Positions 1 through 18,643 of a stretch of 64,000 bases of DNA are shown here, one piece after another (within the stretch, counting starts at the first letter, position 1; every line of letters starts with the position of its first letter). The stretch comes from a virus (lineage: Duplodnaviria; Caudoviricetes). A program made the translations under genes and the position numbers. The stretch is taken from IMG/VR virus record IMGVR_UViG_3300011113_000253, positions 1 through 64,000 of that record; one strand, 5' to 3'. The notes under the pieces are model-generated. The model searched no databases. It was not told the origin of the DNA and was given only the letters and a program-made list of their open reading frames with translations.

Positions 1-16
1 AGATGCACAAGAATCT

Positions 17-3000
17 ATGCATGGTGATGTAAGCACAAGCATTCACAACGATGTTTATGGTGTCATGAATGAAATACCAGCACAAGTACCATTTACAAAT
101 ACTTGGGTTGGCGGTAAACAATCTCGCCACGTTCAATTAAATACAGGTGCAGATAATTACTTATCAAGACCAGAAGCATGGAAAATAACACTTGGAACTT
201 TATTAACTGCTTCATACCAAACAGCAATTGGTTTTGTTGGCGCAGATTACCCTTACCCAGAGGGAAATCCATACGAACCATCTTATCCAGTAGTTGCACA
301 CAAAAGAGCAACTTATTTTAGAGAAGAAACAGCAAAAAGACCAGTTAATACAAGAAACATTCAAACTACTACAGGCTCTGTAGTACTTGGAAATTATCAA
401 AATACTTATGAAATACTAAGTTCGTTTGGTTCTACAAATAACAATAGAGAATTAGTAGATGCTGTTAACCCAACCAACAATACAGAGCTTTATGGTATTG
501 TTAGAACTGATGTAACAGATGGAAGAGTAGATTTTACTTTACCAACAAGACAAAGATCACAAACAATTGTTAAAAATTTATTTTCTGCTCCTGGTGATTA
601 TAGAACAAATTCAAGAGGTTATCTAAACAGGTACGCTGAAGAATTATCTCCTTATAATTCTTTGCCATTCAGAAACAAACAAATAATTGGTGATGGTTCA
701 AGAAACGCAGATGTATTAACCACAGATTCTGTACAGTATCCAGAAATTGTTTCTGGTTCAAAATTAGAATTAAACAATCTTTTAACTATACCAAGTAGTT
801 TTGGCGGTTATGTTTCTGGATCTACAACAGTTGCATCTTTCCACAAAGTCAATAGAAATCGTATCTTTACAACACAAAATACATTTAATTATGATAATGG
901 TTTTGTGTCACATCCAATACCACAAAAAGATTCTGGTTACTTATGGATTACATCATCATTAAGTGGAACTGCTGTAGACAATAATCTTGCGTTTTTTGGA
1001 AATTTCAATAGTGACATTACACTTCCAACTGGTTCCACTTCTTATGAACCAACATACTACTTTGTTTCTGCAAGTGAAATTGGAAGTTATTACGATACTC
1101 TTGGATTAACCAGAAAATTCCCAGAAAGTGTCACAGATGCTTCATTAGGTAATAGAAATCAATTTATACCAATTGATTTTGTTGGTTTAAATACACTTAT
1201 TTATGAAACTAGTTCATACACAACTTTAGGTGAAACAACAAATGATTATCAAACTTTGGTTAACATGAGTGTTGTTGGCACAGTTGATGTAATGCAAAAA
1301 CCATACATTTTTTCTGCTTTAATGCAACACAGAAATGGTCCATATGGATTTTCATCATTTAAACAAGTAAGAACTGGTGAACATAGAGTAGTTAGAAATC
1401 TTGTTAGAGATAACTATACTTCTTTGTTAGTAGAAAACTCAGATGGTACACAAACATTTATAATTCAAAAAGAACCAAACGTTTACTTTAACACACCTTT
1501 TACAGCAAAAATTAGAGACACTTTAACAAATCAAATTTTAACGTTTAAGTATTCTTATGAAAACTTATTACAAACTTTTGAACAACCAGATTTATTTAAC
1601 AACTTGTCTATTACTAATAATCAAACATTTTATGAAAAGAAAATTGCTTTCTTATTAAATAATTCAAGATACAAACTTGTTAATACAAAAGTTGGATTTT
1701 CACTTTATCCAAGAAGAAGAAATAAATCTTTATTAGAAAATAACAAGAGAATAAATTATGTATTTACAAGTTGGAGAGATTCTAGAGAAAATAGAAACAT
1801 TTCTAATTCTATTTCTCAATTTAATTACACAGTAAATAATAATACTATTTTGATACCAAAACAAAGTATTTGGCCTATGGATGCTTCCGCTTCAATAGGT
1901 GATGGTGGTGTATTGCAAAATAGCTATTCGTTAATACATAATGGTTTAACTTCTAGTATAACCGCTTCAGTCCTTTATAACTACAAGCACACTTTATTGA
2001 CTTTAGATAGTTATAAATCTAAATCACCAATTGATGCAGTATTGCAATTTTCACAATCAAGTGTAAACCCTTATCTTCAAGTATCAACTGGTTTGTTTGG
2101 TGGTACTGCTATTTGGGAGGCAGGACTTTATGGTAATAATCCATACGCAGATTCTTATGATAATTGGTACGAAAAGATCAGATCAATTGCAAAAGACTAT
2201 AGTATTATGCCAGAGTATGTTATTTCAGATGATACTAAACTTCTTGCAGCACAACAAAATAAGTTTGATGATGAATACTTAAATTCAATTACACTTACTG
2301 GTTCACAATTTAATGCTACTGCATCAATGACAGATAGTTTCGTAAATGATCTAGTTAGATCTGATTTCATTAAAGATGTTGATAAAATCAAAACTGATCT
2401 TTCAAGTATAAGCAAAACAATAAAGCTTAAATTAAATTGCGATGCAATAATTAAATTTAATGCAAAACCAGATTTGTATCCACAATACAGAACAGTTGAC
2501 ATAGCAGAAAAATTCTTAACAACAACAGAAAATTATTTATCATTTTGGACAGGTTCTGGTCCTATAGCTGCAAATACTTACACTCAAAAAAATGTTGCTT
2601 ATAGAAGTGTTTTAACGCCTTTATTTGCTCCTGGTATTCTTTATAATACAATTAAATCTGGTATTGCTGTAGACTTTCCTATTTTAACTTCTTCTCTTGA
2701 AGTAACAGGTGGTGTTTATGAAAGTGGTCTTGATAAAGATCGATTAATAAATAATAGTACATTTAACATTAGATTGCCATTTGAAACATTAGTACAACCA
2801 GAAAATTATTTAACAACTAATTTTATTGATATGGAACCAAACCCATCTGCTTCATTAGGCATTACTGGTTCATGGTCTGGTCAATACAGCAACAACCTTT
2901 ACAAGATGGCAATTAATAACTTCTTAGCAGAAAGTATTAATTTCTTCTTACCAGATGGAAAATTAACAACACTTTATTCAAAACCAGAAAGTGAATTTGG

Positions 3001-4762
3001 TTTAGTAGACCCAACAAAAACTTATCAAGCGTTAGTTAAAATTTATAAAACTGCTGATAATAATAAAATTTTTGATTATGATTATGGTGATTCATTAGGC
3101 AATACTTCTTATGCTACAAGAGGCAAGTATGCAAAACCACAATTACCAAGCACATCTAAAGAGACTATTACTATGTACTCAAGACCATCTGCGTTTGGTC
3201 CTCCATGTGCTGGTGGTGAAAAAGGAACTACTGGGTTTACTAAAGGCATTGTAGATTCTTCAAATGGGTACAATCCAGCATTTACTCCTCCATACTACGA
3301 CGGTTCATCTTGGGCAATTCTTACATTTAAACCAAGCGGATCTGTTTCATACAAACCAACATTAAATGAAATAATAAACAACATTACTGCTTCATACATA
3401 AGATTTGAAATGATTAGTGGAACTGTTGGAACTTCTGGTCCGTATTCAAGTGCAAATTTGAATACAAATTCAATGCAAGTATCAGCATCTTTGAATTTGT
3501 TTAACATTGTTAATACAAATCAAGTTGACTTGTCTACAATTGATGCAACAAACGTTCAGCCAAATTCAAGACTTTGGGCAATACAAACTAAATTTGAAAC
3601 ACCAATCTTGGACTTCAATCCATCTAATACTGGTGCAACAATAACATCTGGTTCACAAATACCAACAATAGGTATGTGGCATCAAATAGGTCAAATACCA
3701 GAAGATGATAAAGGAATTTATTTACAAATTACTGATGTTCCAAGATCTTACTTGGTATACGGAACAAACGGTGTATCCTTAGATGTACAAGCCTCAGCAA
3801 ATACATTTAATACATCACCACAACTAACTGGCTCTCTTTGCGACATTGTTGGATTCTCAAAACAAGAAGTCAAGTTGGGACAAGTTGCAAACGAAAAAAC
3901 AATTAAAGAAGCAGTAGTTGCAATTCCTTATGTTAATGTATTAAACCAAAGAAGATTTATTAATTTACCAAATAATGCTGTAACTTATGTACAAAATACA
4001 TTTTTTGGTATGAGCAAAGAAATAGAGCAAACAGAAACCGAAATTCTTTCATCAGTACCAGAAACTGTTAGAAATCAATTAAGGGCAATGAAAGAATACG
4101 TTATTCCTCCAAACTTTGATTTTGTAAATAACGATAAAGTAAATCCAATTGCAATGTACTTCTTTGAATTTAGTTACAAACTAACACAACAAGATTTGGT
4201 AAACATTTGGCAAGGTATGCAACCAAACATTTCAGTTGAATTTGAAAAACAATCTTCAATTATTGAACATGAAATAAATCAAAATGAATTTATTAATTTA
4301 GACAACTTAAGTGAAAAACTTGAATGGTTAGTGTTTAAGGTTAAGCAAAAAGCAAAAACTAATTACTTTGATCAAGTATTCCAATCAATAAAAGAAAAGA
4401 ATAAAGATAAGATCAATAACTTACTTAAACTTGGAAGAAACAATAAATTTAACATTACTTCATTGGAGTCAATGCCACAATACACTTACAACTGGCCTTA
4501 CGATTATTTCTCACTTGTAGAGTTAGCTAAGATTGATGCAAAATTAGAATTTGAAAATCTAGATACAGATCCTGCTTCAATTACAAATGTAAGCAATAAA
4601 ACTCTTAAAGAAATTAGTGAGCAACCAAAAAGAAATCTTAATAAGATTGTTGAATCATCTACCGACAATGCAACTCAATTACTAACTAACGTTTCTACAC
4701 AAACAATAAGACCAGCATCATCAGCAGGAGATGCTTCAAGATTAAAAAGGAATAGAACATAA
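17..4762 (+). CDS. very large virion/baseplate-region structural protein (probably 5' truncated by window)
   Basis: 1581+ aa ORF, frame open from base 2. S/T/G/N-rich with many TGS/SGS/SAS motifs; lies ahead of baseplate-like genes. Confidence 0.6.
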   Translation: MHGDVSTSIHNDVYGVMNEIPAQVPFTNTWVGGKQSRHVQLNTGADNYLSRPEAWKITLGTLLTASYQTAIGFVGADYPYPEGNPYEPSYPVVAHKRATYFREETAKRPVNTRNIQTTTGSVVLGNYQNTYEILSSFGSTNNNRELVDAVNPTNNTELYGIVRTDVTDGRVDFTLPTRQRSQTIVKNLFSAPGDYRTNSRGYLNRYAEELSPYNSLPFRNKQIIGDGSRNADVLTTDSVQYPEIVSGSKLELNNLLTIPSSFGGYVSGSTTVASFHKVNRNRIFTTQNTFNYDNGFVSHPIPQKDSGYLWITSSLSGTAVDNNLAFFGNFNSDITLPTGSTSYEPTYYFVSASEIGSYYDTLGLTRKFPESVTDASLGNRNQFIPIDFVGLNTLIYETSSYTTLGETTNDYQTLVNMSVVGTVDVMQKPYIFSALMQHRNGPYGFSSFKQVRTGEHRVVRNLVRDNYTSLLVENSDGTQTFIIQKEPNVYFNTPFTAKIRDTLTNQILTFKYSYENLLQTFEQPDLFNNLSITNNQTFYEKKIAFLLNNSRYKLVNTKVGFSLYPRRRNKSLLENNKRINYVFTSWRDSRENRNISNSISQFNYTVNNNTILIPKQSIWPMDASASIGDGGVLQNSYSLIHNGLTSSITASVLYNYKHTLLTLDSYKSKSPIDAVLQFSQSSVNPYLQVSTGLFGGTAIWEAGLYGNNPYADSYDNWYEKIRSIAKDYSIMPEYVISDDTKLLAAQQNKFDDEYLNSITLTGSQFNATASMTDSFVNDLVRSDFIKDVDKIKTDLSSISKTIKLKLNCDAIIKFNAKPDLYPQYRTVDIAEKFLTTTENYLSFWTGSGPIAANTYTQKNVAYRSVLTPLFAPGILYNTIKSGIAVDFPILTSSLEVTGGVYESGLDKDRLINNSTFNIRLPFETLVQPENYLTTNFIDMEPNPSASLGITGSWSGQYSNNLYKMAINNFLAESINFFLPDGKLTTLYSKPESEFGLVDPTKTYQALVKIYKTADNNKIFDYDYGDSLGNTSYATRGKYAKPQLPSTSKETITMYSRPSAFGPPCAGGEKGTTGFTKGIVDSSNGYNPAFTPPYYDGSSWAILTFKPSGSVSYKPTLNEIINNITASYIRFEMISGTVGTSGPYSSANLNTNSMQVSASLNLFNIVNTNQVDLSTIDATNVQPNSRLWAIQTKFETPILDFNPSNTGATITSGSQIPTIGMWHQIGQIPEDDKGIYLQITDVPRSYLVYGTNGVSLDVQASANTFNTSPQLTGSLCDIVGFSKQEVKLGQVANEKTIKEAVVAIPYVNVLNQRRFINLPNNAVTYVQNTFFGMSKEIEQTETEILSSVPETVRNQLRAMKEYVIPPNFDFVNNDKVNPIAMYFFEFSYKLTQQDLVNIWQGMQPNISVEFEKQSSIIEHEINQNEFINLDNLSEKLEWLVFKVKQKAKTNYFDQVFQSIKEKNKDKINNLLKLGRNNKFNITSLESMPQYTYNWPYDYFSLVELAKIDAKLEFENLDTDPASITNVSNKTLKEISEQPKRNLNKIVESSTDNATQLLTNVSTQTIRPASSAGDASRLKRNRT

Positions 4763-5742
4763 TGTCTTTTTTTGACTCCAAAGAAGAAGTAATAAATCTT
4801 GAACTTACAAGTTATGGTAAACTTTTATTATCAAAAGGTCTATTAAAACCAGAGTATTATTCCTTTCATGATGAAGACGTACTTTATGATGTATCTTATT
4901 CTAATTTGCAAGAAAATGCTGGTGTTGCTGAAGTAAGAATACAAGAACAAACAATTTATGTAAAACCAATTTATAATTTTGTATCTCCAACGCCTTTAAT
5001 ACAAAAAGCACTAAACCAAGACAATTATTTGAAAAGTATTAATAACCTTAATGAATACAAAGTAGACTATTTTGATAATTCATTAGGAGTATCAAGTATT
5101 TACAATCTTTATGCTCCAGCGTGGAACATAAAAAATCTTTCAACTGTATTTGTTTCGTCAAGTAACAATTTTTCTAATACAAATCTAAGAATACCACAGT
5201 TTGAATGTATTCTAACCGCATCATTTATTAAAACTACAGAAGATAAATTAAACCAAGATCAACAGTTAGCAGAACTAGTTTCCTCTAAACTTAATGCTGT
5301 GTTTCTTGAAGATGGAACTGTTTATTTTAATGATTTTGAAGAGTTAGTAATTAAAATGGAAGAATTAAATACTGATGCAGATTTCGATAAATTTGAAATA
5401 GAAATTTTTAAAGTTCAAACAAATAATGATGGTACTGAATCGTATGAAATTATGAAACTACCAAAAGAATTAAATTTTGTTGACGATAATGGATTACTAC
5501 AAAACTTATCAGCTTTAAACTTACAAGAAATTATAGATGATAGTTATGCGACTAAATTTTTTGATGTTTTGGTGGACAAAGAAATTAATGATGAGATTGC
5601 ATGTAAGCACATTTTATTATCTACACAAAATCAAGACGCAATCTTTAATGACATAACTATTTGTGATAATGTTAATGTTAAATACAAAACAAATGATCTC
5701 TACAGAATAATTAATGATAGAGCAACAGGAAGAAACTGCTAA
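4762..5742 (+). CDS. putative baseplate/virion structural protein
   Basis: N-terminus (INLELTSYGKLLLSKG..YYSFHDEDVLY) resembles that of 10295 (ILDAVLTDTGRLRLAKG..FAFGDDEINY); TAATG coupling to the upstream gene. Confidence 0.55.
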   Translation: MSFFDSKEEVINLELTSYGKLLLSKGLLKPEYYSFHDEDVLYDVSYSNLQENAGVAEVRIQEQTIYVKPIYNFVSPTPLIQKALNQDNYLKSINNLNEYKVDYFDNSLGVSSIYNLYAPAWNIKNLSTVFVSSSNNFSNTNLRIPQFECILTASFIKTTEDKLNQDQQLAELVSSKLNAVFLEDGTVYFNDFEELVIKMEELNTDADFDKFEIEIFKVQTNNDGTESYEIMKLPKELNFVDDNGLLQNLSALNLQEIIDDSYATKFFDVLVDKEINDEIACKHILLSTQNQDAIFNDITICDNVNVKYKTNDLYRIINDRATGRNC

Positions 5743-5743
5743 A

Positions 5744-7864
5744 ATGCCTTCAATAATAAAAACAGAAAACGAACTTTTACCACAATTAAAAATAACAAGT
5801 TTATTATTGGGTCAAGGCGAAACAAATAATTCTAATTTAGTTAGCGTTTTAGAAGATACTAATAATTTGTATTTAGAAGTAAATGTTGAAACTATAAACA
5901 ATGTAACATCGCTTGATCAAATAGTACAAGATAACGAGTATTATAAATACATTCAAATAAGTGTATCAGTTGAACCACAACCAGTATCTACTACGCCAAT
6001 CAGAAAGAATCTATTAAACAGTAGTGGTGAAATAAATTTACAAAACAAGTTTGTGTTAAAAAACATAAACTCTGATACTTTTTCTTTAAAAATAGAACAA
6101 AGTTTTGATTTTGATTCGTTCGCATCAGACAATAAAATTAGTTTAGAACAAAAACAATTATTAATAAACGTTTACGGACAAACACAATCAATAACTTATC
6201 CAATTTTACTAAACAAAAAAATAATTAAAACATTTGATAATGGTGAAAATTCAATTTTAATTGATAAAAGATTTTTAGATGGTTTAGACGTATTTCAAGA
6301 TAATTTACAATTTAATAAAATTGAAAGAACAAACACAAGTTATTTTGGTGATAATTTTTATCAAACACATAATAATCAAAATTTAACTTCTTTTATAATT
6401 TTTGATTATGAATCTTTTTTAAGAGAAACAAGTTTCTTTACAGAAAATGCATTACAAAATTATTCATACACAATTGAAGTAGTAAAGAATAATAGCATAG
6501 TTGATGTTATTAGTGTATCTTTTGATAGTAATACTGTTTCTTTCTTTAGTAAGAAATCGGTATCTGTGTTACACAAAACAAATCCTTCTTTGTTTATTTC
6601 TGTTAATGAGCAAATGGATTCGTTGAGTGAAACAACTACAAATACTTATAAGCTAAACGTAACAAATAAAGATAAAACATTTATTAATTTTTATAATAGA
6701 TTAGATAATACAGGGGAATTTGTTGATCTTAGAAATTCTTACGATCAGTTAAAAAATGTAATCAAGTTTGCAACAACCAGAATGGATCAAACAAAAAACA
6801 TTTATTATTTAGATCCAGTAACATTAAAGTTTCAAGAAGATTTTATTTTATTTTATCAACAAAAAGAAAATTATTTTAATTCTACATTTAATTCTTTTAA
6901 AATAAACATAAACATAAATGAATTTATAACTTCTATTTTTAGAGTTTATAATAAATTTTCTAACAATACAATTACTCAAGAGCAAATAGAAGATGTGGTT
7001 AATTTACTTGTACTACAAAATACAACTTATGATCTATGGCAAAGAATGTTTAATACCTTAGATAAATTGTTCAGCACTTTAGAAAATTTTCTATACAACA
7101 TTACTATAACTCCATCAATTACAAGAAGTAAAAGTTTCATTAAAAAAGTTACAAAAAGCAATTATTATTATTCAATAAGTAATTTTAACTCATACGATTT
7201 ATTTCCAAAAGTTTCATACGAACAAGTTTCTAATTCTTACCTACAAAATGAACCTTCAGGTTTAGCACAATTTTTTACATTTAAAACAGTTACTTATAAA
7301 AATGAAAACAACATTCAATTTGATAGTCCAACGTATAATGCTATAAATGCTTATTTAAACACAAAATTAAAAATTAATAGTAAACAAATAAGTGATTCAA
7401 GTTTATTAGGATTTACAAACTTAGAACCATTTGGAGTAGATGTTATAGAACAAGATCAGCAAGCAGAAGCAAACAATCCTATTAAATCTAATTCACTTTT
7501 GAATCCAATTTCTACTGCTAAAAATTCTAAAACATCAAACAATTATTTAAATTTAAATAAAATAAAAGATTTAGATAATAATACAAAATTTGCAATCAGC
7601 AATACAAATAAAATGTTACTTGGCTTATCGAGTGGTAAAATTACAGATACATTATCATTAAATTCATTATTTCCAAAGCTTGCATTTAGTAGGTTTAATT
7701 ATAGTTTAAATAGATTTGAACTTATTGAAGATTTATCAACACTAATAAACAATGATTTAATAAAATTAGAAGTTATTCAAGAACCAGAAATCTTTTCAAC
7801 AAACAATGTAGGTATAGAACAAATAGATTTAGTAAATACTTATTTCATAATAGATGGAGTTTAA
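5744..7864 (+). CDS. hypothetical protein (virion region, Asn-rich)
   Basis: Long ORF; ATG at 5744 follows the upstream stop and is preferred over 5714. Confidence 0.6.
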   Translation: MPSIIKTENELLPQLKITSLLLGQGETNNSNLVSVLEDTNNLYLEVNVETINNVTSLDQIVQDNEYYKYIQISVSVEPQPVSTTPIRKNLLNSSGEINLQNKFVLKNINSDTFSLKIEQSFDFDSFASDNKISLEQKQLLINVYGQTQSITYPILLNKKIIKTFDNGENSILIDKRFLDGLDVFQDNLQFNKIERTNTSYFGDNFYQTHNNQNLTSFIIFDYESFLRETSFFTENALQNYSYTIEVVKNNSIVDVISVSFDSNTVSFFSKKSVSVLHKTNPSLFISVNEQMDSLSETTTNTYKLNVTNKDKTFINFYNRLDNTGEFVDLRNSYDQLKNVIKFATTRMDQTKNIYYLDPVTLKFQEDFILFYQQKENYFNSTFNSFKINININEFITSIFRVYNKFSNNTITQEQIEDVVNLLVLQNTTYDLWQRMFNTLDKLFSTLENFLYNITITPSITRSKSFIKKVTKSNYYYSISNFNSYDLFPKVSYEQVSNSYLQNEPSGLAQFFTFKTVTYKNENNIQFDSPTYNAINAYLNTKLKINSKQISDSSLLGFTNLEPFGVDVIEQDQQAEANNPIKSNSLLNPISTAKNSKTSNNYLNLNKIKDLDNNTKFAISNTNKMLLGLSSGKITDTLSLNSLFPKLAFSRFNYSLNRFELIEDLSTLINNDLIKLEVIQEPEIFSTNNVGIEQIDLVNTYFIIDGV

Positions 7865-7866
7865 TA

Positions 7867-10263: not shown

Positions 10264-10265
10264 TA

Positions 10266-10275: not shown

Positions 10276-10294
10276 AAAAAGAGGAAACTAAACA

Positions 10295-11212
10295 ATGGCG
10301 TTTTTGGATAATAGCGGCGACATAATACTTGACGCAGTTTTAACAGATACAGGAAGACTTAGATTAGCAAAAGGAGATGGTAGTTTTAGAATTACACAAT
10401 TTGCTTTTGGTGATGATGAAATAAACTATGGTCTTTACAATAAGAATCATCCATCTGGTTCTGCTTATTATGATTTAGAAATCCTTCAAAGCCCAATACT
10501 TGAAGCTTTTACAAATAATACATCAGTTCTTAAATACCAATTAATTTCTAATAACAGAACAGACTTGTTATTCCTCCCAGTAGCAAAATTAAACACTATC
10601 TTAAATCCATTTAGTACAGGATACTCAAGTTACTTTGTAGTGTCAAATACTACTACAAGAGATGCAATACAAAATAGTTCTGTTGGATTCCTAGATGGTG
10701 TAACAAATACACCACAATTTTTACCAATTAGTGTAGATCAAGGTTTAGATTCTAATCAAACAGATAGAACAAAAAATTTAGTAGAAACAGATTCTACATT
10801 GTATGAATCCCAATACTCTATTGAAGTTAATTACAATCTTTTAAGATTAAGAATTGGAAATCAACTTCTTGAACCTACCTCAATTGATGATGATGGGTTT
10901 GCAATTTATGTATTAGATGAAAACATAAATACTTCTGCAATCACACAATTACAACCTGGAGAAGTGTATGCACCAAATCAATGCTCCACAGTTCTAAATG
11001 GCACAGTAGGAAGTAGATTATCATTAAACCTTTTATGTTCAACACAAGTACAAATAGGAACAGAAATTTTCACAAGACTTGGTGGAACATTTAACGGAGC
11101 AAGTGTAGGACTTAATGCAGCAACCTATTACATAGATACAGCCATAACTGTAAAAGGATTAACTACTGGAGTATCTACAACAGTACCATTAAAGATAGTT
11201 AAAAATCCATAA
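10295..11212 (+). CDS. putative baseplate/virion structural protein
   Basis: MAFLDNSGDIILDAVLTDTGR...FAFGDDEINY N-terminus typical of large myophage baseplate-region proteins. Confidence 0.6.
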   Translation: MAFLDNSGDIILDAVLTDTGRLRLAKGDGSFRITQFAFGDDEINYGLYNKNHPSGSAYYDLEILQSPILEAFTNNTSVLKYQLISNNRTDLLFLPVAKLNTILNPFSTGYSSYFVVSNTTTRDAIQNSSVGFLDGVTNTPQFLPISVDQGLDSNQTDRTKNLVETDSTLYESQYSIEVNYNLLRLRIGNQLLEPTSIDDDGFAIYVLDENINTSAITQLQPGEVYAPNQCSTVLNGTVGSRLSLNLLCSTQVQIGTEIFTRLGGTFNGASVGLNAATYYIDTAITVKGLTTGVSTTVPLKIVKNP

Positions 11213-11230
11213 TTAATTAAGGAATAAAAA

Positions 11231-12256
11231 ATGTCAACTTACAAACCACTTTCATCAAACGATACAGTTTCAACAAGAACGTTACTAAATGAGGTTATTC
11301 CTTTAACTGGTACTATTGTTTCTGGAACATACAACGACAATAACATAAAAAATTATTCACATCAAATGTTCCAATCTGTTTATGATTATCCTTATTTAAG
11401 TTCTTCTGCAAATCACATCTTTGACATAGCAGTAGGGTTTTCAACTGGATCAGCTTTATCAAGTTCAACCGCTACTCAAGTTGCTAAAAAAGTTAACATT
11501 TATAACCAAATGGCTCAATTACTAGTTGGTTATAACACAACAAATGCTATTCAAAGATTTGATCAAGACGGTGATTTAGGAAGTGGAACAAAAATAGATA
11601 ATGCATTTTTTCTTTCATTTAGTAGATTATTAACAAAAGATGAAATTAAAAAAGGTTCATTTACTTTACAAGTTCTTACAGGTGGTGCAAATACTTCTCC
11701 ATCAAACATACTAACAATTTCTGATTACGGTGCAACCACAGACTACAGAACTAATTCACCAGCGGGAGAATACGGAATACTTTATACTTCTTCAGCCGCT
11801 GTAGACGGTACTGGTGTTGGTTTGATTTATTATCAAGCTGGTTTGGTTGTACTAACTTGCTCTGTTTTTAACGGTAACTTTGGTCCAAGATCCGATACAT
11901 CAACCTACACATCTTCTGTAGCAAATTATTTTGTTACTGGTTCAACAACAGGATCGTTTGATGGATTTAGAAACAGACTTTACAATGTTCAATTCAACAA
12001 CACAACTGAGTTGAATTCAACAGTATACTTCTGTCGTGCAAATCATAACGAATTTAACTATTCATCAAATCCAACTTATCTTAGTGGTGGACAAATAACT
12101 GTTAAAAATAACGCATCCGACGCTCCAGTTTCTTACATAACTACAGTAGGTTTGTACTCAGCAGACAATGAGCTTCTTGCTGTTGCTAAACTTAGTGAAC
12201 CATTAAAGAAAACTGTTGACAACGAACTAACAGTAAGAGTTAGATTGGACTACTAA
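11231..12256 (+). CDS. putative baseplate/tail-fibre attachment protein
   Basis: C-terminal EFNYSSNPTY...YITTVGLYSADNELLAVAKLSEPLKK; paralogous to the next gene. Confidence 0.55.
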   Translation: MSTYKPLSSNDTVSTRTLLNEVIPLTGTIVSGTYNDNNIKNYSHQMFQSVYDYPYLSSSANHIFDIAVGFSTGSALSSSTATQVAKKVNIYNQMAQLLVGYNTTNAIQRFDQDGDLGSGTKIDNAFFLSFSRLLTKDEIKKGSFTLQVLTGGANTSPSNILTISDYGATTDYRTNSPAGEYGILYTSSAAVDGTGVGLIYYQAGLVVLTCSVFNGNFGPRSDTSTYTSSVANYFVTGSTTGSFDGFRNRLYNVQFNNTTELNSTVYFCRANHNEFNYSSNPTYLSGGQITVKNNASDAPVSYITTVGLYSADNELLAVAKLSEPLKKTVDNELTVRVRLDY

Positions 12257-12263
12257 AAGTGTT

Positions 12264-13436
12264 ATGTCATTACATAAAATTAAACCAAACGAAATCTTTA
12301 TTAATCAAGTAGAATTTAATCCAAAGGTTAATTTTTATGTTTATGATGGAAAAACTTATTATAACCAACAATCAGAAATTTCTGGAGCATTTACTAGTAA
12401 CGTACTAAATGTTCCAGTAGGTCACTTAAGCCTTTATGAATTAAACGTAGACAGAAACCAATCTCAAACTGGTTTAATTTATCCATTTATTACAAAAGAT
12501 GGTTCATTAACTTCTTTTAGAACAATAAGCACAACATCATTTAATACCGATTTTGCTTATGGTAACGAAGTAACAGGCACTTATCCAATGAGTGCTACAA
12601 TACTACGTGAGTTTTATCAAACAGGTGAAACAAGAACCCACTTAAACGCACTTAAAAATACATTAAATTATTATTCTTATGTTTCTAATCACTATTCTTA
12701 TTCTTCTTCTTTAGGTGATAAATCAAATCAACCATTAAATTTATTAAGTATTCCATCGATCTTTTACGGTTCTTCTATTAAAAAAGGAACAGTAAAGTTA
12801 GACTTTTACATTTCTGGTACATTAATTGGTACGTTAGAAGATTATAATAAAAATGGTGAATTGATACAAACTGGTCCATCTGGTTCTACAGGTTCTGGAT
12901 CGGTTGCTGGAGTCGTTCTTTACACAGAAGGTTTCGTTATTCTTACAGGGTCATGGGGACTTGAAACTGGTATTGCAAGAAACTATTTAAACGACATTAG
13001 TAATCAAGTAACATCTTCGTGGCTTTATTTTGGTTCTGGTATGTCTGGAACTGAAGCTTATACTTATGGTTCTTTACCATCATCAAGTTTTAACATACAA
13101 TTTGATGGAATCAACAAAACACCAGTTATGACATTTTTTGCTCACGCTAAAAGAGGAGAGCTTAACAACTCATTAAATCCAACATTTATTGCAAGCTCAA
13201 GTTATAAACAACCTTTAATAAATTCAAGTTCTTATGTAGAATACGAATACATGCAACCAACAAATGTTGTATCAAGTTCATTTAATACAGAACCATACTT
13301 AGAAAAAATTACATTTATTTCATCAATTAAGTTGTATGATAGAAATAAAAATGTTATTGGTATTGCAAAACTATCTAAACCAATAAGAAAATCTCAAGAA
13401 AGAGATTTAGCATTTAAAATTAAACTTGACTTGTAG
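12264..13436 (+). CDS. putative baseplate/tail-fibre attachment protein (paralog of 11231)
   Basis: ELNNSLNPTF...FISSIKLYDRNKNVIGIAKLSKPIRK matches the C-terminus of the preceding ORF. Confidence 0.55.
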   Translation: MSLHKIKPNEIFINQVEFNPKVNFYVYDGKTYYNQQSEISGAFTSNVLNVPVGHLSLYELNVDRNQSQTGLIYPFITKDGSLTSFRTISTTSFNTDFAYGNEVTGTYPMSATILREFYQTGETRTHLNALKNTLNYYSYVSNHYSYSSSLGDKSNQPLNLLSIPSIFYGSSIKKGTVKLDFYISGTLIGTLEDYNKNGELIQTGPSGSTGSGSVAGVVLYTEGFVILTGSWGLETGIARNYLNDISNQVTSSWLYFGSGMSGTEAYTYGSLPSSSFNIQFDGINKTPVMTFFAHAKRGELNNSLNPTFIASSSYKQPLINSSSYVEYEYMQPTNVVSSSFNTEPYLEKITFISSIKLYDRNKNVIGIAKLSKPIRKSQERDLAFKIKLDL

Positions 13437-13442
13437 GCAGTA

Positions 13443-13973
13443 ATGAAACCAGCAATAATTGGACTTGATGTAAGTTCATCTAAAATAGGTGTAGCCGTTT
13501 TGGGTGAAGATAGAAAAATACTAACATCAGAAGTTATAAAATTAAAATCTGATGATTCTTTAGAAAATCGTGCTTTAATGTTAGAAAATAAATTGGAAAA
13601 ATTAAAAAAGTATTATTTTATTGATAATGTTTTTGTAGAAGAACCATTTATTGCTTTTGGTGGTGGTAAGACTACTGCACAAACAATGGCTACTCTACAA
13701 AGATTTAATGGAATGTGTTGTTATTCAATTTATCGTGTTTTTGATAAACCACCAAAAATGGTTTCTGTTAGAAGTGCAAGATCTAAGTTGGGCATAAAAA
13801 TACCAAAAGGCACCCCACAAAAAGAATCAAAAAAATACATAATTGAGTATGTGGAAAAGAACCATCCAGAATTTCAATACACCACAACAGCGCATGGAAA
13901 TCCACAACCTGGAACAGACGATAGAGCAGACGCTATTGTTATTGCATTATACGGACTTGACCAGACAGAATAG
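13443..13973 (+). CDS. RuvC-like Holliday junction resolvase
   Basis: IIGLDVSS, VFVEEP and DDRADA give the RNase H/RuvC acidic tetrad pattern. Confidence 0.8.
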   Translation: MKPAIIGLDVSSSKIGVAVLGEDRKILTSEVIKLKSDDSLENRALMLENKLEKLKKYYFIDNVFVEEPFIAFGGGKTTAQTMATLQRFNGMCCYSIYRVFDKPPKMVSVRSARSKLGIKIPKGTPQKESKKYIIEYVEKNHPEFQYTTTAHGNPQPGTDDRADAIVIALYGLDQTE

Positions 13974-13985
13974 CCATGCTATGAT
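13957..13985 (+). promoter_or_regulatory. sigma70-type promoter for primase (TTGACC-17-TATGAT, extended -10 TG)
   Basis: TTGACC 13957-13962, 17 nt spacer, TG at 13977-13978, TATGAT 13980-13985; the ATG is 7 nt downstream. Confidence 0.7.
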
Positions 13986-13991
13986 CTGAAC

Positions 13992-14921
13992 ATGGCAACC
14001 AAAACATCACTACTAAGCTCGGCACTAGGAGACTACAGAAAGTCTGGTGACGAGCTTCTTTTCTTTTGTCCTTTCTGTCAGCATCACAAAAAGAAATTAT
14101 CTGTAAATTTAAAAACAAACAACTATAAATGTTGGGTTTGTGACGAGCGTGGTAAAAATGTAAGACGCTTGTTGAAACCTCGTTTGTCTTATTCTGAATT
14201 ATACGAATGGGATAAGTTAAATAATTACGTTGACCTTACTCAGCTTGATTCAAACATTTTTGATGATCACTCAAAAGTTGTTGAAGAAATTATTGAACTA
14301 CCAGAAGATTTTGTTTCTCTTGCAAATAAAAATCTTCCTATGTCTTCGCGTTTTGCTCTTAAGTATTTGCAAGACCGTGGTATTACAAAAGAAGACATTT
14401 TAATGTGGAAGATTGGTTATTGTAATAAAGGAGAATACAAAGATAGAGTAATTGTTCCATCATTTAATAATGATGGTAATGTTAATTATTTTATTGCTCG
14501 TTCCTATACAAATAGTTTTCCTAAATACATGAATCCAAAAGTGTCTAAAGACATTGTGTTTAATGAAATCAACATCGATTGGGATGAAGACATTGTAATT
14601 GTTGAAGGTGTGTTTGATGCTATGAAAGCAGTAAATGCAATACCGCTTTTGGGTTCTACATTAAATCAACAATCCAATTTGTTTAATAAGATTGTTTACT
14701 ATGACCCAAAAGTTTACATTGCACTTGACCCAGATGCAGAGAAAAAAGCTTCTACACTAATCCAAAACTTGGTTGGGTATGGTATAGAAATTTATAAAAT
14801 CGACATTTCTGGTTATGATGATGTTGGTGCGATGCCCAAGCACGTTTTTATAAACAGAAAAGAAAGAGCAGAACTAATTGGCGAAGATTGGGTTTTAGAG
14901 CATAATCTTCTTGCTATTTGA
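13992..14921 (+). CDS. DNA primase (zinc finger + TOPRIM)
   Basis: CPFC...CWVC zinc finger, YLQDRGI, IVEGVFDA and IALDPDA TOPRIM motifs. Confidence 0.88.
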   Translation: MATKTSLLSSALGDYRKSGDELLFFCPFCQHHKKKLSVNLKTNNYKCWVCDERGKNVRRLLKPRLSYSELYEWDKLNNYVDLTQLDSNIFDDHSKVVEEIIELPEDFVSLANKNLPMSSRFALKYLQDRGITKEDILMWKIGYCNKGEYKDRVIVPSFNNDGNVNYFIARSYTNSFPKYMNPKVSKDIVFNEINIDWDEDIVIVEGVFDAMKAVNAIPLLGSTLNQQSNLFNKIVYYDPKVYIALDPDAEKKASTLIQNLVGYGIEIYKIDISGYDDVGAMPKHVFINRKERAELIGEDWVLEHNLLAI

Positions 14922-14939
14922 TGATTTCTGTAGTACATT
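14911..14939 (+). promoter_or_regulatory. sigma70-like promoter (TTGCTA-17-TACATT) for the SbcCD gene
   Basis: 17 nt spacing; GGGAG RBS and ATG 14955 follow. Confidence 0.45.
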
Positions 14940-14954
14940 GACTTGGGAGACAGT

Positions 14955-17900
14955 ATGAAGTTTGCTCACATTGCGGATACGCACATCAAAAACTTAAAAT
15001 ACCATACAGAATACAAAACTGTATTTAGTAAAATGTACGATACCTTGAAAGAAGAAAAGGTAGATTACATAATTCATTGTGGAGACATTGCTCACACCAA
15101 AACTCAAATCTCACCAGAGTTTGTTGAAATGGCAGCAGATTTTTTTAAAAATCTTTCTGCTATTGCCCCAACATACATTATTCTTGGCAATCATGACGGT
15201 AACCTTACTAACGACAGTAGACAGGATGCACTTACTCCAATCGTAAATGCTTTGAATCTTAACAATCTTTATCTTTTAAAGAAGTCGGGCGAGACTAAAC
15301 TAAAAGATAATTTTGTTCTTAATGTCTTATCTGTGTTTGATGAAGAAGGTTGGGTAAAACCATCAGATCCAAATGCAGTTAACATCGCACTTTATCACGG
15401 TTCTGTTAATGGAGTAAAAACAGATACAGGGTTTGTTTTGGAAAAAGCAGACCATGATGTTTCTATTTTTGTAGGTCATGACTACGCATTTCTTGGTGAC
15501 ATTCACAAAACAAACCAAACTCTTGATACAGATGGAAGAATTCGTTACCCAGGCTCTACTCTTCAACAAAATCATGGTGAAACAAACGATAAAGGATTTC
15601 TTATTTGGGACATTCAAGATAAGCTCTCATTTGATTGCAAACACGTTTTAATTGAAAACCCTAATCCTTTTATCACAGTTGAACTTGAAGAGAATGGCGG
15701 GCTTCCTAATGGGCTTACAATACCTTTGAATGCAAGGCTTAGACTTCTATCTCGTACCAATCTTCCAGCAGAAATTATGAAGAATGTTGGTGACGTTGTA
15801 AAAGAAAAATGGAAACCAGAAAGTGTATCTTTTTTATCCAAGAACGTCGCCAGATCAAAAGAACTAAAGGAAAGTGTAGATGGTATTGAGAAAGAAGATC
15901 TACGAAATGTAAAAGTTCAAGAACAATTAATTGAAGAGTTTCTTGTCAACTATAAAGTACCAACTGATGTTTTGCAGAAGGTATTTGAAATTAATAAAAA
16001 ATTTAATACAGAAGTAGAGTCAAAAGAAGAAGTTGCACGTAACATTAATTGGAAAGTTGAGTCTTTAGAATGGGATAATCTTTTTAATTATGGAACAGAT
16101 AACAAAATTAATTTCAAAAATTTACAAGGTATTGTTGGTATCTTTGGTAAAAACTACTCTGGTAAATCTTCTGTAATTGATAGTATTCTTTATGCTTTGT
16201 ATAACACAACTTCAAAGAACGAAAAGAAAGCATCAAACGTAATCAACACAGCAAAGAAAAATGCTGTTGTTAACTTAAAATTATCAGTAGATGATAGTGA
16301 GTATGTTATTGCTCGTAGTTGTGAGAAAGTAATCAAGAAAGATGGTTCTGAAGAAGCTAAAACAACTTTGAACTTTATTGGCGATGGTGTTTCTATTAAT
16401 GGAGATACAAGGGTTCAAACAGACGCAAACATTAAAAAAATGTTTGGCACTATTGATGATTTTATGCTTACCTCTATGTCTTCACAACTTGATTCACTTT
16501 CTTTTATTCGCGAAGGTTCTACAAAACGCAAAGAGATTCTTGGTCGCTTTTTGGATTTGGAAATCTTTGATGCTAAAAATAAACTAGCAAAAGAAGAATC
16601 AGCAAGTATCAAAGCTTTAATTAAGAAGCTTGAAGTAACAGATTACGATACTCAAATTTTAAAAACACAAGATGAAATAGAAATTCTTAATACTACAACT
16701 AATCTATTGAAAGATCTTGTCAGCGATTCTAATAATACTTTGAAGCAGTTGAAGACAGAGATTGATTCATTAGATGGACAATTAAAATCAATAAACGTTG
16801 AGTCAATTGACATTTCAAAAACTATAGAAAGACGGGAGTATCTACTTACTACTTCAGTTAAAGCCTCAACCGCTAAAGCAGATAAAGTATTAGAATTAGA
16901 AAACAAAACAGCAGAGTTTGATAAAATTACAGATTTTCTAAACAACTTTGACATTGTTGGTTTAAACAAAAAGAAAGAAGAGATAAAGGACTATCAATCT
17001 AAACTGTCTGCTATTACTCAAGATCTTCAATTAAACAATAAAGAAACAAAGTATCTAAAAGATAAAATTAAATTACTTGGCGAAGTTCCTTGTGGTACAC
17101 AGTTTCCAACTTGTAAGTTTATAAAAGACGCTATTGATGCTTCAAATAAAATTACAAATCAAGAAAACAAAACTAATAACCTTGCAGATGAACACGATAA
17201 AGTTGGAGAAGCACTTGCTTTATTAAGTCCAGACGTTGTAGAAAAACAACTAAACAAGTACCAAATGGTTGTCAATAAACAAACAACAGTCGAAAAAGAA
17301 ATACTTCAATTAAAGATTGATGTTGAAAAATTTAATACAATTATTTCTAACATTAATAAAGAAATGAATCTTGTTAAAGAGAAAATAGAACAATACAAAA
17401 AGAACGAAGAACTGTTCAAACAAGTTGAATCTTTAACACAAGACAGAAACGATAAACAAATTGAATGGAATCAACTTGATAAAGAAACTAAAGCAAATAA
17501 CGAACAGTTGTTGCAATGTTACATAAAGTATGGGTCACTAGTAGAAAAGATTGCTGCATTAAATGTTACAAAGCAAGAATTAGAAAATTATAGAAATGAA
17601 TTTGCTGCTTACGATTACTTTATGAAGGCTACAAGCTCTAATGGTATTTCTTATGAGATTATCAAAAAGAAACTTCCAATTATTAACGAAGAGATAGCAA
17701 CTATTCTTTCTAACATTGTAGATTTTCAAATTTATTTTGAAGATGATGGGTCTAAGTTAAACATCATGATTCAACATCCTAATAGTGAACCAAGACCTAT
17801 TGAAATGGGTTCTGGTGCAGAGAAATCAATTGCTGCTATGGCTATAAGACTTTCAATGCTTCAAGTATCTAATCTGCCTAAGTCTAATTTGTTTATTTTA

Positions 17901-18080
17901 GATGAACCTGGAACTGCATTAGATAGTGAGAACCTTGAAGGCTTTATCAGAATACTTGATATGATTAAAAATTATTATGATACTGTTCTTCTTATTTCCC
18001 ATATGGATGCTTTAAAAGATGTAGCAGATCAAATAATTACAATAGATAATGTAAATGGATTTGCCAAGATTGTTATTTAA
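14955..18080 (+). CDS. fused SbcD-SbcC (Mre11-Rad50; T4 gp47-gp46-like) nuclease/ATPase
   Basis: Phosphoesterase motifs DTH, GD, GNHD, HG and GDIH; Walker A GKNYSGKS; coiled coil with CGTQFPTC zinc hook; SGAEK signature; Walker B ILDEP; H-loop LISH. Start moved to ATG 14955. Confidence 0.9.
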   Translation: MKFAHIADTHIKNLKYHTEYKTVFSKMYDTLKEEKVDYIIHCGDIAHTKTQISPEFVEMAADFFKNLSAIAPTYIILGNHDGNLTNDSRQDALTPIVNALNLNNLYLLKKSGETKLKDNFVLNVLSVFDEEGWVKPSDPNAVNIALYHGSVNGVKTDTGFVLEKADHDVSIFVGHDYAFLGDIHKTNQTLDTDGRIRYPGSTLQQNHGETNDKGFLIWDIQDKLSFDCKHVLIENPNPFITVELEENGGLPNGLTIPLNARLRLLSRTNLPAEIMKNVGDVVKEKWKPESVSFLSKNVARSKELKESVDGIEKEDLRNVKVQEQLIEEFLVNYKVPTDVLQKVFEINKKFNTEVESKEEVARNINWKVESLEWDNLFNYGTDNKINFKNLQGIVGIFGKNYSGKSSVIDSILYALYNTTSKNEKKASNVINTAKKNAVVNLKLSVDDSEYVIARSCEKVIKKDGSEEAKTTLNFIGDGVSINGDTRVQTDANIKKMFGTIDDFMLTSMSSQLDSLSFIREGSTKRKEILGRFLDLEIFDAKNKLAKEESASIKALIKKLEVTDYDTQILKTQDEIEILNTTTNLLKDLVSDSNNTLKQLKTEIDSLDGQLKSINVESIDISKTIERREYLLTTSVKASTAKADKVLELENKTAEFDKITDFLNNFDIVGLNKKKEEIKDYQSKLSAITQDLQLNNKETKYLKDKIKLLGEVPCGTQFPTCKFIKDAIDASNKITNQENKTNNLADEHDKVGEALALLSPDVVEKQLNKYQMVVNKQTTVEKEILQLKIDVEKFNTIISNINKEMNLVKEKIEQYKKNEELFKQVESLTQDRNDKQIEWNQLDKETKANNEQLLQCYIKYGSLVEKIAALNVTKQELENYRNEFAAYDYFMKATSSNGISYEIIKKKLPIINEEIATILSNIVDFQIYFEDDGSKLNIMIQHPNSEPRPIEMGSGAEKSIAAMAIRLSMLQVSNLPKSNLFILDEPGTALDSENLEGFIRILDMIKNYYDTVLLISHMDALKDVADQIITIDNVNGFAKIVI

Positions 18081-18090
18081 AACTATTTAA
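18081..18090 (+). promoter_or_regulatory. putative late promoter (AACTATTTAA), probably leaderless transcript
   Basis: CTATTTA ends at 18089, ATG at 18095, no RBS between. Confidence 0.55.
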
Positions 18091-18094
18091 TGGT

Positions 18095-18643
18095 ATGTTA
18101 ACAGAACGCAAATTAAGAAACATAATAAAACAAGAATTGCTAGATCTTCTTGAGGCAAGACAGCCAACAGAGGATCTGGCAATTTTTTATAAGTTACTTA
18201 GCCAATTAGGAACTTTTCATTTTGGTGGTGACAAAGAACAACAAACAATGTCATTCTTAAATAACGAAATGATACCAACATTAGATTCATTGATAGAAAA
18301 AATAGAAAAAATTACATTTAAAAAAGTAAACGAAAGCATCATTGACACTTTGCGTTTGTATGTTGGCAAAGAAAAAGAAGCACCAGAAGTTTTTACTAAA
18401 ACTGATTTACAAATTACAATACAAGAAGTAAAAAATAAGTTAAAAGAATTAACAAATTTAATTTTTGATAAAAGAGCTGGCTTTAACAAAGAATACCAAA
18501 AATACCATGATGAATCTGTTTCTCCGATACTTGATCAACTAAAACAAAAATTAGAAGAATTAGTTCAATCTAATACAAAACATCCTTCGCGATCACAACT
18601 TACAAAAAGTGATATCTTAAAAAGAGCGGAAAAAGGTATATGA
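18095..18643 (+). CDS. putative internal head protein with capsid-targeting-like leader
   Basis: Begins MLTERKLRNIIKQELLDLLE, the leader shared with other ORFs. Confidence 0.55.
   Translation: MLTERKLRNIIKQELLDLLEARQPTEDLAIFYKLLSQLGTFHFGGDKEQQTMSFLNNEMIPTLDSLIEKIEKITFKKVNESIIDTLRLYVGKEKEAPEVFTKTDLQITIQEVKNKLKELTNLIFDKRAGFNKEYQKYHDESVSPILDQLKQKLEELVQSNTKHPSRSQLTKSDILKRAEKGI

What the first reader, a model, noticed from the sequence alone, without database searches (positions are those of the whole stretch)
1..18610. Near-complete avoidance of the tetranucleotide ATAT, enforced by synonymous codon choice
Seen: in this strongly AT-rich DNA, ATAT should occur a few hundred times in 18.6 kb on base composition. 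Reading by eye I found about five (near 1342, 2829, 8817, 17959, 18001), all as ATATG. The same holds for about 45100-61900 (near 45723, 46555, 48153, 57015; all CATAT or ATATG). Codon pairs visibly dodge it: Asn/Asp/Tyr-Ile use AAC/GAC/TAC-ATH (e.g. AAC ATA AAC ATA at 6905), and Lys/Glu-Tyr use AAG/GAG-TAT or AAA/GAA-TAC, although NNT and NNA codons dominate elsewhere. TATA and GATC are common. Inference: strong selection against a palindromic DNA or RNA motif (most strictly DATATH). SspI (AATATT) and EcoRV (GATATC) cover only part of this set, so an undescribed host defence, nuclease or modification specificity, or a phage-encoded one, may be responsible.
Basis: partly seen in the sequence, partly recalled or inferred. 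Interest (0 to 1): 0.8.

Follow-up and report, generated by a model that had tools for sequence, protein, structure and literature searches.

The report
Phage purged of the word ATAT
A large freshwater phage has removed nearly every ATAT from most of its genes by silent codon changes, which is the usual mark of dodging a DNA-cutting enzyme, although no enzyme that reads ATAT is known.

Summary
Base composition predicts 287, and within-gene synonymous codon shuffles predict about 150. The genes at 45315-62362 hold 6 against 122.5. All three codon phases and all flank classes are purged, DATATH most strongly. TATA is normal once overlaps with ATAT are removed.

The window is about 40% of a T4-like freshwater myovirus whose relatives reach about 184 kb. 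ATAT loss is lineage-specific: 9 of 69 sheath-region relatives show it. Sister lineages lack other 4-bp palindromes (TATA, AATT, GATC, GGCC, CCGG). This contig also lacks CCGG, CASTG, CAGCTG, CTGCAG and TCAGG/CCTGA.

The best reading is ordinary restriction-site avoidance driven by a duplex-DNA nuclease that reads ATAT, a specificity for which I found no known enzyme.

The depletion is patchy. Blocks at 18.6-24.2 kb and 31.9-41.7 kb have normal ATAT density, and one breakpoint lies inside the portal gene. Close relatives carry different patches. Contigs from an independent study bridge the junctions, so this is real mosaicism and not an assembly chimera.

The agent and the host are not identified. 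No nuclease or methylase was found on the contig. The scan noted ATAT avoidance once before on other DNA (e1-5936802, not followed up).

The parts
1..18610 (.). ATAT-purged block A. It holds large unknown (probably structural) genes, a RuvC-like gene, primase and a fused SbcD-SbcC. It has 5 ATAT, all SATATG.
   Evidence: PHROG hits for primase and SbcCD. Weak RuvC hit.
18611..24209 (.). ATAT-normal patch B. It holds small ORFs, a two-gene accessory island, large terminase and the first 670 nt of the portal gene. It has 60 ATAT against 77 zero-order; genes are at 0.3-1.1 of shuffle expectation.
   Evidence: Terminase and portal hits. Close relative L080 is purged here (3 ATAT against the window's 27).
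24210..31900 (.). Purged block C. It holds the rest of the portal gene, head protease, head genes and bS21. It has 7 ATAT against 92 zero-order. The breakpoint lies inside the portal gene: 8 observed / 8.2 expected before 24212, then 1 / 7.0 after.
   Evidence: Relatives L071 and L073 carry 27-29 ATAT here, where the window has ACAT or ATAC.
31901..41700 (.). ATAT-intermediate to normal patch D, holding tail-fibre and baseplate-like genes. It has 45 ATAT against 106 zero-order; genes are at 0.16-1.1 of shuffle expectation.
41701..45300 (.). Stretch with a low expected count (higher G+C). It has 4 ATAT, and its status is ambiguous.
45301..62400 (.). ATAT-purged block E. It holds an adaptor-like gene, tail sheath, tube, baseplate hub, large unknown genes and a DNA polymerase-like gene. 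It has 6 ATAT against 231 zero-order and 122.5 by shuffle.
62401..64000 (.). Start of the partly purged replication module, which continues to contig base 73750. There are 5 ATAT here and 14 more in 64001-73750 against 101 zero-order.

Best explanation
This is restriction-site avoidance. A nuclease that reads the duplex word ATAT, most efficiently as DATATH, has cut or nicked phages of this lineage on entry. It is probably part of a restriction-modification system carried by some strains of the unidentified freshwater host.

Each site carried a cost. Silent changes that destroy sites therefore accumulated: NAT to NAC, TAT to TAC, xxA to xxG, ATA to ATT/ATC. Long-resident DNA became almost site-free.

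The ATAT-normal blocks are DNA exchanged by recombination with closely related phages that were not under this selection. The genome is therefore a patchwork of purged and unpurged segments.

Shown: the depletion, its synonymous nature, its restriction to one lineage, and the real mosaic structure.

Inferred: that the agent is a nuclease, that it belongs to the host, and that the patches are imports.
For: 1. Size and nature of the depletion. The deficit is 20- to 50-fold against codon-preserving nulls, in all three codon phases: 0/49.5, 4/78.6 and 3/119.

2. Selection, not one-way mutation. Both escape routes are used. Lys/Glu/Gln before TAT is G-ending 25 of 25, and before TAC is A-ending 43 of 46.

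3. Register-specific. TATA outside ATAT is 132 against 128.6, so this is not avoidance of AT repeats or of TpA steps.

4. Flank effects are reverse-complement symmetric in the window (CATATH 5/44.5 against DATATG 4/38.4). This is what a dimeric protein on duplex DNA would produce.

5. Family context.
- Among 134 related loci of at least 10 kb, 45 of 2030 palindrome tests against 7 of 31372 non-palindrome tests fall to 0.2x Markov expectation or less.
- Different lineages lack different words by codon shuffle: AATT (L014, 22/135), GATC (L057, 0/37), GGCC (L038, 1/34), TATA (L024, 0/34; L025, 0/19).

6. The same contig lacks other enzyme-like words: CCGG 0/26, CASTG 0/36, CAGCTG 0/35, CTGCAG 0/28 and TCAGG+CCTGA 2/81.

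7. Lineage specificity. 9 of 69 sheath-region relatives are depleted, mostly the closest ones, and 58 sit at 0.87-1.44 of Markov expectation. Homologues of region A in L151-L153 carry 33-39 ATAT in 3.6 kb where the window has 0.

8. At relatives' ATAT sites the window has ACAT or ATAC. 43 of 60 cells are single synonymous changes.

9. Patches differ between close relatives, which rules out a gene-class or expression-timing effect.

10. Contigs from an independent study, with 0 differences, span 15000-19105, 24117-28160 and 28142-32395.
Against: - No enzyme, methylase or host was identified.
- No ATAT-specific restriction enzyme is known (passage in PMC3724700; I found none in my searches).
- The contig still carries 146 ATAT. 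Against an efficient ATAT cutter the purge would give little protection today. The reading therefore needs one of three things: weak per-site cutting, a system present in only some host strains, or a past selection that has since relaxed.
- Relative L005 shows asymmetric flanks (DATATG 13/23 against CATATH 2/12). L006 does not.
- The relatives used are not independent of one another, and some loci come from the same contig.
Confidence: 0.6

Rival explanations
1. The phage lineage carries its own solitary ATAT-cutting nuclease, used against host or rival DNA, and stays immune by having no sites.
For: Earlier follow-ups in this scan proposed this for AATT- and TTAA-free T4-like cyanophages (notes seen). 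Those notes are unchecked leads. Only about 40% of the genome is in hand: the contig ends inside an RNR gene, and a relative rated 100% complete is 184,352 b. A nuclease gene could therefore lie off the contig.
Against: No nuclease or methylase candidate was found among the ORFs I scanned with PHROGs or Pfam on the 73.7-kb contig, or in 10 kb downstream in relative L273. No accessory ORF tracks the depleted loci. The genome holds 60 ATAT in 5.6 kb and 146 overall, which an active self-nuclease would cut. The EcoRI family search found nothing, but its controls rang nowhere, so that result carries no weight.
Confidence: 0.12
2. The selection acts on RNA. An AUAU-cutting endoribonuclease (toxin-type or phage RegB-like) destroys transcripts, and genes that must be expressed avoid the word.
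For: The word is its own reverse complement and all genes lie on one strand, so no strand test is possible. Relative L005 shows asymmetric flanks.
Against: Purged and unpurged blocks do not follow gene class. Primase, SbcCD, sheath and tube are purged, while terminase and fibres are not. One breakpoint lies inside a gene. Close relatives carry the patches in different genes. The strongly avoided words across the phage family are overwhelmingly DNA palindromes. Flank effects in the window are reverse-complement symmetric.
Confidence: 0.04
3. No selection on the word. A context-specific mutation or repair bias (like very-short-patch repair), or avoidance of slippage-prone AT repeats, erodes ATAT.
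For: At aligned sites the window mostly shows T-to-C replacements: ACAT 29 and ATAC 16 of 60 cells.
Against: The A-to-G route is used as well: xxG-TAT in 25 of 25 Lys/Glu/Gln cases, and Ile ATA is replaced by ATT/ATC. TATA in the other register is untouched. A genome-wide repair bias would not leave sharp normal-density patches that share the same overall codon usage.
Confidence: 0.04
4. The patchiness is an assembly chimera of two co-occurring strains.
For: The source is a metagenomic contig, and many 80-90% identical relatives co-occur.
Against: Run X4, from a different study and year, gives contigs with 0 differences across three of the junctions. X6 and X9 contigs at 95-99% identity also bridge 18.1-19.3 kb and 22.6-25.3 kb.
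Confidence: 0.02

Closest known systems
Restriction-site (short palindrome) avoidance in virulent phages. Survey: Rusinov et al. 2018, BMC Genomics, PMC6286503 (I saw the search listing and the start of the abstract only). From my own recall: Staphylococcus phage K lacks GATC.
   Same: A short palindromic word is removed by synonymous changes. The effect is lineage-specific and occurs alongside avoidance of other enzyme-like words (CCGG, CASTG, CAGCTG, CTGCAG).
   Different: The word is ATAT, for which no cognate enzyme is known. The purge is mosaic within one genome, and the patches differ between close relatives.
Type IIP restriction enzymes with an ATAT core: SspI (AATATT), EcoRV (GATATC), NdeI (CATATG). 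Names and sites are recalled, not from a call.
   Same: They read palindromes that contain ATAT.
   Different: They cover only 3 of the 16 NATATN words. Here non-palindromic hexamers are purged too (AATATA 0/20, TATATT 0/12). CATATG and GATATG are the least purged (3/9.6 and 2/2.5).
Under-representation of ATAT and TATA among palindromic tetranucleotides in an acid-mine community (Dick et al. 2009, PMC2745766; passages read).
   Same: ATAT and TATA are named among the palindromes found below codon-based prediction and linked to restriction avoidance.
   Different: That paper reports a mild community-wide trend in archaea, bacteria and viruses. It is not a near-total, lineage-specific purge with synonymous-site proof.
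Phage-borne solitary nuclease with self-avoidance
   Same: T4-like phages purged of one 4-bp AT palindrome by codon rewording.
   Different: No nuclease gene was found here, and large normal-density patches remain.

Membership tests
Restriction-site avoidance in phage genomes | The word is far below a null that keeps protein sequence and codon usage. | tested here: met
   7 against 155.9 (minimum 137 of 200 shuffles) and 6 against 122.5 (minimum 104). Per-gene table.
Restriction-site avoidance in phage genomes | The word has the form of a restriction target (short palindrome), with symmetric flank effects as expected for duplex recognition. | tested here: met
   ATAT is self-complementary. The window shows CATATH 5/44.5 against DATATG 4/38.4. 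L005 is an exception (2/12 against 13/23).
Restriction-site avoidance in phage genomes | The removal is independent of reading frame and made by silent changes. | tested here: met
   All three phases are depleted. Context-dependent codon choice. 43 of 60 aligned cells are single synonymous changes.
Restriction-site avoidance in phage genomes | The effect is lineage- or host-specific, and relatives avoid other target words. | tested here: met
   9 of 69 loci are depleted. Relatives lack AATT, GATC, GGCC, TATA, CCGG, CGCG or TCGA. 45/2030 palindrome tests against 7/31372 non-palindrome tests are flagged.
Restriction-site avoidance in phage genomes | A cognate restriction-modification system of that specificity exists in the host. 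| not testable with these tools
   The host is unknown: there are no tRNA genes, and the bS21 scan gave only distant hits across many phyla. PMC3724700 states that no enzyme is known for ATAT or TATA.
Restriction-site avoidance in phage genomes | The depletion extends over the whole genome. | tested here: not met
   Normal-density patches at 18611-24209 (60 sites) and 31901-41700 (45 sites). This is explained as recombination, not shown.
Self-avoidance of a phage-borne solitary nuclease | A nuclease gene sits on the phage and is present only in purged lineages. | tested here: inconclusive
   None found on 73.7 kb plus 10 kb of a relative. About 60% of the genome is unseen.
Self-avoidance of a phage-borne solitary nuclease | The phage genome is essentially free of sites. 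| tested here: not met
   146 ATAT on the contig.
Avoidance of an mRNA-interferase cleavage word | The depletion follows transcripts or gene classes and the sense strand. | tested here: not met
   There is a breakpoint inside the portal gene. Patches sit in different genes in close relatives. A strand test is impossible for a self-complementary word.

The most novel reading that the evidence does not exclude
The codon choice of these freshwater phages records bacterial nucleases that read ATAT (this lineage) and TATA (sister lineage L024/L025). These are the only two 4-bp palindromes for which no restriction enzyme has been described. The hosts of these phages would then be the place to find both missing specificities. 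The patchwork of purged and unpurged segments would be a readable record of recombination between phage populations that face different host strains.
Probability: 0.5. Interest if true: 0.65.

Novelty: new member of a known kind. Interest (0 to 1): 0.5.

Why it matters
Palindrome avoidance is a well-known anti-restriction footprint, so the mechanism class is ordinary. The target is not. One paper passage (PMC3724700) says that ATAT and TATA match no known restriction enzyme, and my own recall of REBASE agrees.

A near-total, lineage-specific ATAT purge, with a TATA purge in a sister lineage, is indirect but strong evidence that such enzymes exist in freshwater bacteria. It also points to where to look.

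The mosaic pattern gives a simple marker for tracing recombination among co-occurring phages. It also shows that several avoidance layers (CCGG, CASTG, CAGCTG, CTGCAG, TCAGG/CCTGA, ATAT) are distributed independently among close relatives.

Tried and rejected
**Searches that gave no lead**
- Megablast of 1-20000 against cultured phage records: no match.
- tRNA scan of the window: none.
- bS21 scan of prokaryote genomes, meant to hint at a host: only 33-47% identical hits across many phyla, uninformative.
- ESM Atlas look-up of the accessory 338-aa ORF upstream of the helicase: only unnamed viral clusters below 0.9.
- EcoRI-family search in five relatives' records: no match, but the controls rang nowhere, so it says nothing.
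- Presence/absence of every contig ORF, and of the ORFs of L271, L273 and L291, against depleted and non-depleted loci: no gene tracks the purge. A 207-aa ORF in L273 and L291 is absent from this contig.

**Literature**
- I found no ATAT methylation motif or ATAT-cutting enzyme in searches.
- There was no occurrence of ATAT or TATA in the main text of two metaepigenome papers (PMC6329791, PMC8919816). Their supplements were not seen and could list motifs.
- PMC12679398 mentions only RTAY-type and CATAT-containing strings in Helicobacter and Campylobacter tables.

**Ideas considered and rejected**
- AT-repeat slippage or TpA avoidance: TATA is normal.
- A general NAC preference: the shuffle keeps codon usage, and the choice depends on context.
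- Early/late gene timing.
- A one-way T-to-C bias.
- An assembly chimera.

**Cautions on my own outputs**
- Uncovered bins and short-sided joints are not used as evidence.
- In one search the printed CATATG figures (6/19.2 and 0/10.1) are double counts from a key clash in my script. The true values are 3/9.6 and 0/5.
- I could not decide whether the ATAT-normal patches are imports into a purged backbone or the reverse. The identity matrices do not settle it.
Full report
**What the DNA is**

The window is bases 1-64000 of a single 73,750-b virus contig. All large ORFs lie on the + strand, and the contig is 97% coding.

PHROG and Pfam hits identify these genes:
- primase and a fused SbcD-SbcC
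- large terminase and portal
- head protease
- fibre and baseplate-like proteins
- tail sheath, tube, baseplate hub and a polymerase-like gene
- beyond base 64000: NUDIX, gp32, a RecA/UvsX-like protein, dCMP deaminase, a 5'-3' exonuclease and a DnaB-like helicase

The nearest cultured phages are distant. Large terminase (terL) is 44% identical to Flavobacterium phage immuto and 42.5% to Microcystis phage Mel-JY01. The sheath is at most about 40% identical over part of its length.

The contig is incomplete. It ends inside a ribonucleotide reductase ORF. A relative rated 100% complete is 184,352 b, and a 46-kb relative is rated 25% complete.

The same sequence occurs in freshwater, river, reservoir, lake, estuary and drinking-water runs from 11 studies. 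The host is unknown.

**The observation**

ATAT occurs 132 times in the window.

| Stretch | Observed | Expected |
|---|---|---|
| 1-18610 | 5 | 287 zero-order, 119 Markov |
| genes 17-18643 | 7 | 155.9 +- 8.2 by synonymous shuffle, minimum 137 of 200 |
| genes 45315-62362 | 6 | 122.5 +- 7.3, minimum 104 |

In the pooled depleted genes ATAT is 7/248 (z = -22.8), the strongest deviation of any 4-mer.

All three codon phases are hit: 0/49.5, 4/78.6 and 3/119.

The codon dodging is explicit:
- NAY before ATN is NAC in 70 of 73 cases, against 26% NAC elsewhere.
- TAY after xxA is TAC in 52 of 54 cases.
- Ile before T is never ATA (0 of 78), against 39% elsewhere.
- Lys/Glu/Gln before TAT is G-ending in 25 of 25 cases and before TAC is A-ending in 43 of 46, against 86% A-ending elsewhere.

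The apparent TATA deficit (132/251) comes entirely from overlap with ATAT. TATA not overlapping an ATAT is 132 against 128.6.

**Which word is avoided**

Every flank class is depleted in region A: DATATH 0/98.8, CATATH 0/23.8, DATATG 2/18.1 and CATATG 3/9.6 (the printed CATATG figures there are double counts).

Over all the window's depleted genes the counts are 3/217, 5/44.5, 4/38.4 and 4/18.6. In the less purged relatives L005 and L006, DATATH is 2/69 and 1/55, while C- or G-flanked sites keep 17-70% of expectation.

The target is therefore ATAT, read best as DATATH. The flank effect is reverse-complement symmetric in the window and in L006, but not in L005.

**Lineage specificity**

Of 69 loci found with the sheath protein:
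- 9 are depleted, at 0.10-0.44 of Markov expectation (L001-L007, L013, L045). Most of them are the closest relatives.
- 58 sit at 0.87-1.44.
- 2 (L024, L025) have no TATA at all, with a secondary ATAT deficit. By codon shuffle their TATA counts are 0/34 and 0/19.

Homologues of region A in L151, L152 and L153 carry 33-39 ATAT in 3.6 kb where the window has none.

Where relatives L070-L079 have ATAT in 24250-27400, the window reads ACAT (29 cells) or ATAC (16 cells). 43 of 60 cells are single synonymous changes.

**Family context**

Related phages each lack other 4-bp palindromes:
- AATT: L014 22/135 by shuffle
- GATC: L057 0/37 by shuffle
- GGCC: L038 1/34 by shuffle, and 19 of 134 loci by composition
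- CCGG, CGCG and TCGA together: L047

Across 134 loci of at least 10 kb, words at 0.2x Markov expectation or less make up 45 of 2030 palindrome tests but only 7 of 31372 non-palindrome tests. Some of these loci share a contig, so the counts are not independent.

This contig also lacks other words:
- CCGG: 0/26
- CACTG and CAGTG: 0/36 by shuffle, 0/71 zero-order
- CAGCTG: 0/35 in ORFs
- CTGCAG: 0/28
- TCAGG with CCTGA: 2/81

These absences hold inside the ATAT-rich patches too, and they are distributed differently among relatives. L077 and L072 are CASTG-free but ATAT-normal. L004 is ATAT-purged but CASTG-normal.

From my own recall, four of these words match known Type II specificities (HpaII/MspI, TspRI, PvuII, PstI).

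**The mosaic**

| Coordinates | ATAT observed | Zero-order expected |
|---|---|---|
| 1-18610 | 5 | 287 |
| 18611-24209 | 60 | 77 |
| 24210-31900 | 7 | 92 |
| 31901-41700 | 45 | 106 |
| 45301-62400 | 6 | 231 |
| 64001-73750 | 14 | 101 |

One boundary lies inside the portal gene: 8 observed / 8.2 expected before 24212, then 1 / 7.0 after, with a minimum of 2 in 300 shuffles.

Baseline codon usage is the same in purged and unpurged blocks.

Close relatives carry other patterns:
- L080 (89% nt identity) is purged across terL and the portal 5' end, with 3 ATAT against the window's 27.
- L150-L152 are purged only in SbcCD.
- The contig behind L272 and L351 is partly purged in its replication module (74/215) but normal in its structural module (216/274).

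Contigs from run X4, a different study and year, match the window with 0 differences over 15000-19105, 24117-28160 and 28142-32395. Variants at 95-99% identity from two further studies bridge the 18.6-kb junction (X6, X9) and the 24.2-kb junction (X6). The mosaic is therefore real.

**Mechanism**

The pattern is a short DNA palindrome, removed independently of reading frame by silent changes in either direction. Its flank preference is symmetric. It is restricted to one lineage, in a phage family where each lineage lacks its own set of enzyme-like palindromes. This is the signature of restriction-site avoidance.

I infer a duplex-DNA nuclease that reads ATAT, most likely part of a restriction-modification system in some strains of the host.

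The patchiness is best explained by recombination between purged and unpurged phage lineages. It also implies that the cost per site is modest, that the system varies between host strains, or that the selection lies partly in the past, because 146 sites remain on the contig.

The direction of the exchanges could not be settled.

**Rivals**

- Phage-borne solitary nuclease. Earlier notes of this scan proposed this for AATT- and TTAA-free cyanophages. It cannot be excluded, because about 60% of the genome is unseen. However, no candidate gene was found, and the normal-density patches would be self-targets.
- RNA-level agent. This is disfavoured by the within-gene breakpoint, by patches that move between genes in relatives, and by the dominance of palindromes in the family.
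- Mutation bias or repeat avoidance. This is disfavoured.

**Comparison with the known, and novelty**

The mechanism class is well known (Rusinov et al. 2018, PMC6286503; listing and start of abstract only). Mild ATAT and TATA under-representation has been noted in an acid-mine community (PMC2745766; passages read).

[quoted passage not shown] I found nothing later in searches, nor in the main text of two metaepigenome papers. Their supplements were not seen.

This is therefore a new member of a known kind. Its added value is that it points to two missing enzyme specificities.

Noticed in passing
whole contig (window 1-64000 and on to 73750): Besides ATAT, the contig lacks several other words against codon-shuffle expectation: CCGG (0/26), CACTG+CAGTG (0/36), CAGCTG (0/35 in ORFs, 1 in the contig), CTGCAG (0/28) and the asymmetric pair TCAGG/CCTGA (2/81, at 7256 and 53800). 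These absences also hold inside the ATAT-rich patches. I know of no enzyme for TCAGG/CCTGA.
   Followed up: partly
L024 (1-6102) and L025 (1-4037): A sister lineage (sheath 62-63% identical) has no TATA at all: 0/34 and 0/19 by codon shuffle. One further scan found no other member of this lineage.
   Followed up: partly
L014, L015, L057, L038, L055, L047, L082, L158, L209, L210 and others: Related phages each lack a different 4-bp palindrome: AATT, GATC, GGCC, CCGG+CGCG+TCGA, AGCT, or CTAG+GGCC. GGCC is strongly depleted in 19 of 134 loci of at least 10 kb.
   Followed up: partly
window 18095-18643 and 19423-20661: Two accessory insertions relative to close relatives. The 182-aa ORF at 18095 is missing in L151 and L152, and L153 has only about 100 nt there. 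The two-gene island (a PHROG 'ferredoxin' family ORF and a 178-aa ORF with 17 ATAT) is missing in L150, L151 and L153 but present in L152/L077.
   Followed up: no
window 14943-18080: SbcD-like and SbcC-like parts are fused in one 1045-aa ORF that starts with TTG (PHROG 100 at residues 3-369, PHROG 77 at residues 212-1043).
   Followed up: no
window 31023-31307: A 94-aa ribosomal protein bS21-like gene overlaps the upstream head-region gene. Its best matches in prokaryote genomes are only 33-47% identical and spread over many phyla.
   Followed up: partly
contig 72903-73750 and L273 11373-21324: The contig ends inside a ribonucleotide reductase ORF. In close relatives this is followed by small ORFs, ThyX and a DnaE-type (Pol III alpha) polymerase, while the window also has a PolA-like fragment gene at 61220-62362.
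   Followed up: partly
L273 5743-6366 and L291 4733-5356: A 207-aa accessory ORF sits between the UvsX-like and dCMP deaminase genes in 2 of 24 helicase-region loci. It is absent from this contig and was not scanned against any family library.
   Followed up: no
window, depleted genes: AGCT (64/120), CTAG (37/73) and CAGG/AGGT words are also below shuffle expectation. Part of the AGCT deficit follows from the absence of CAGCTG.
   Followed up: no
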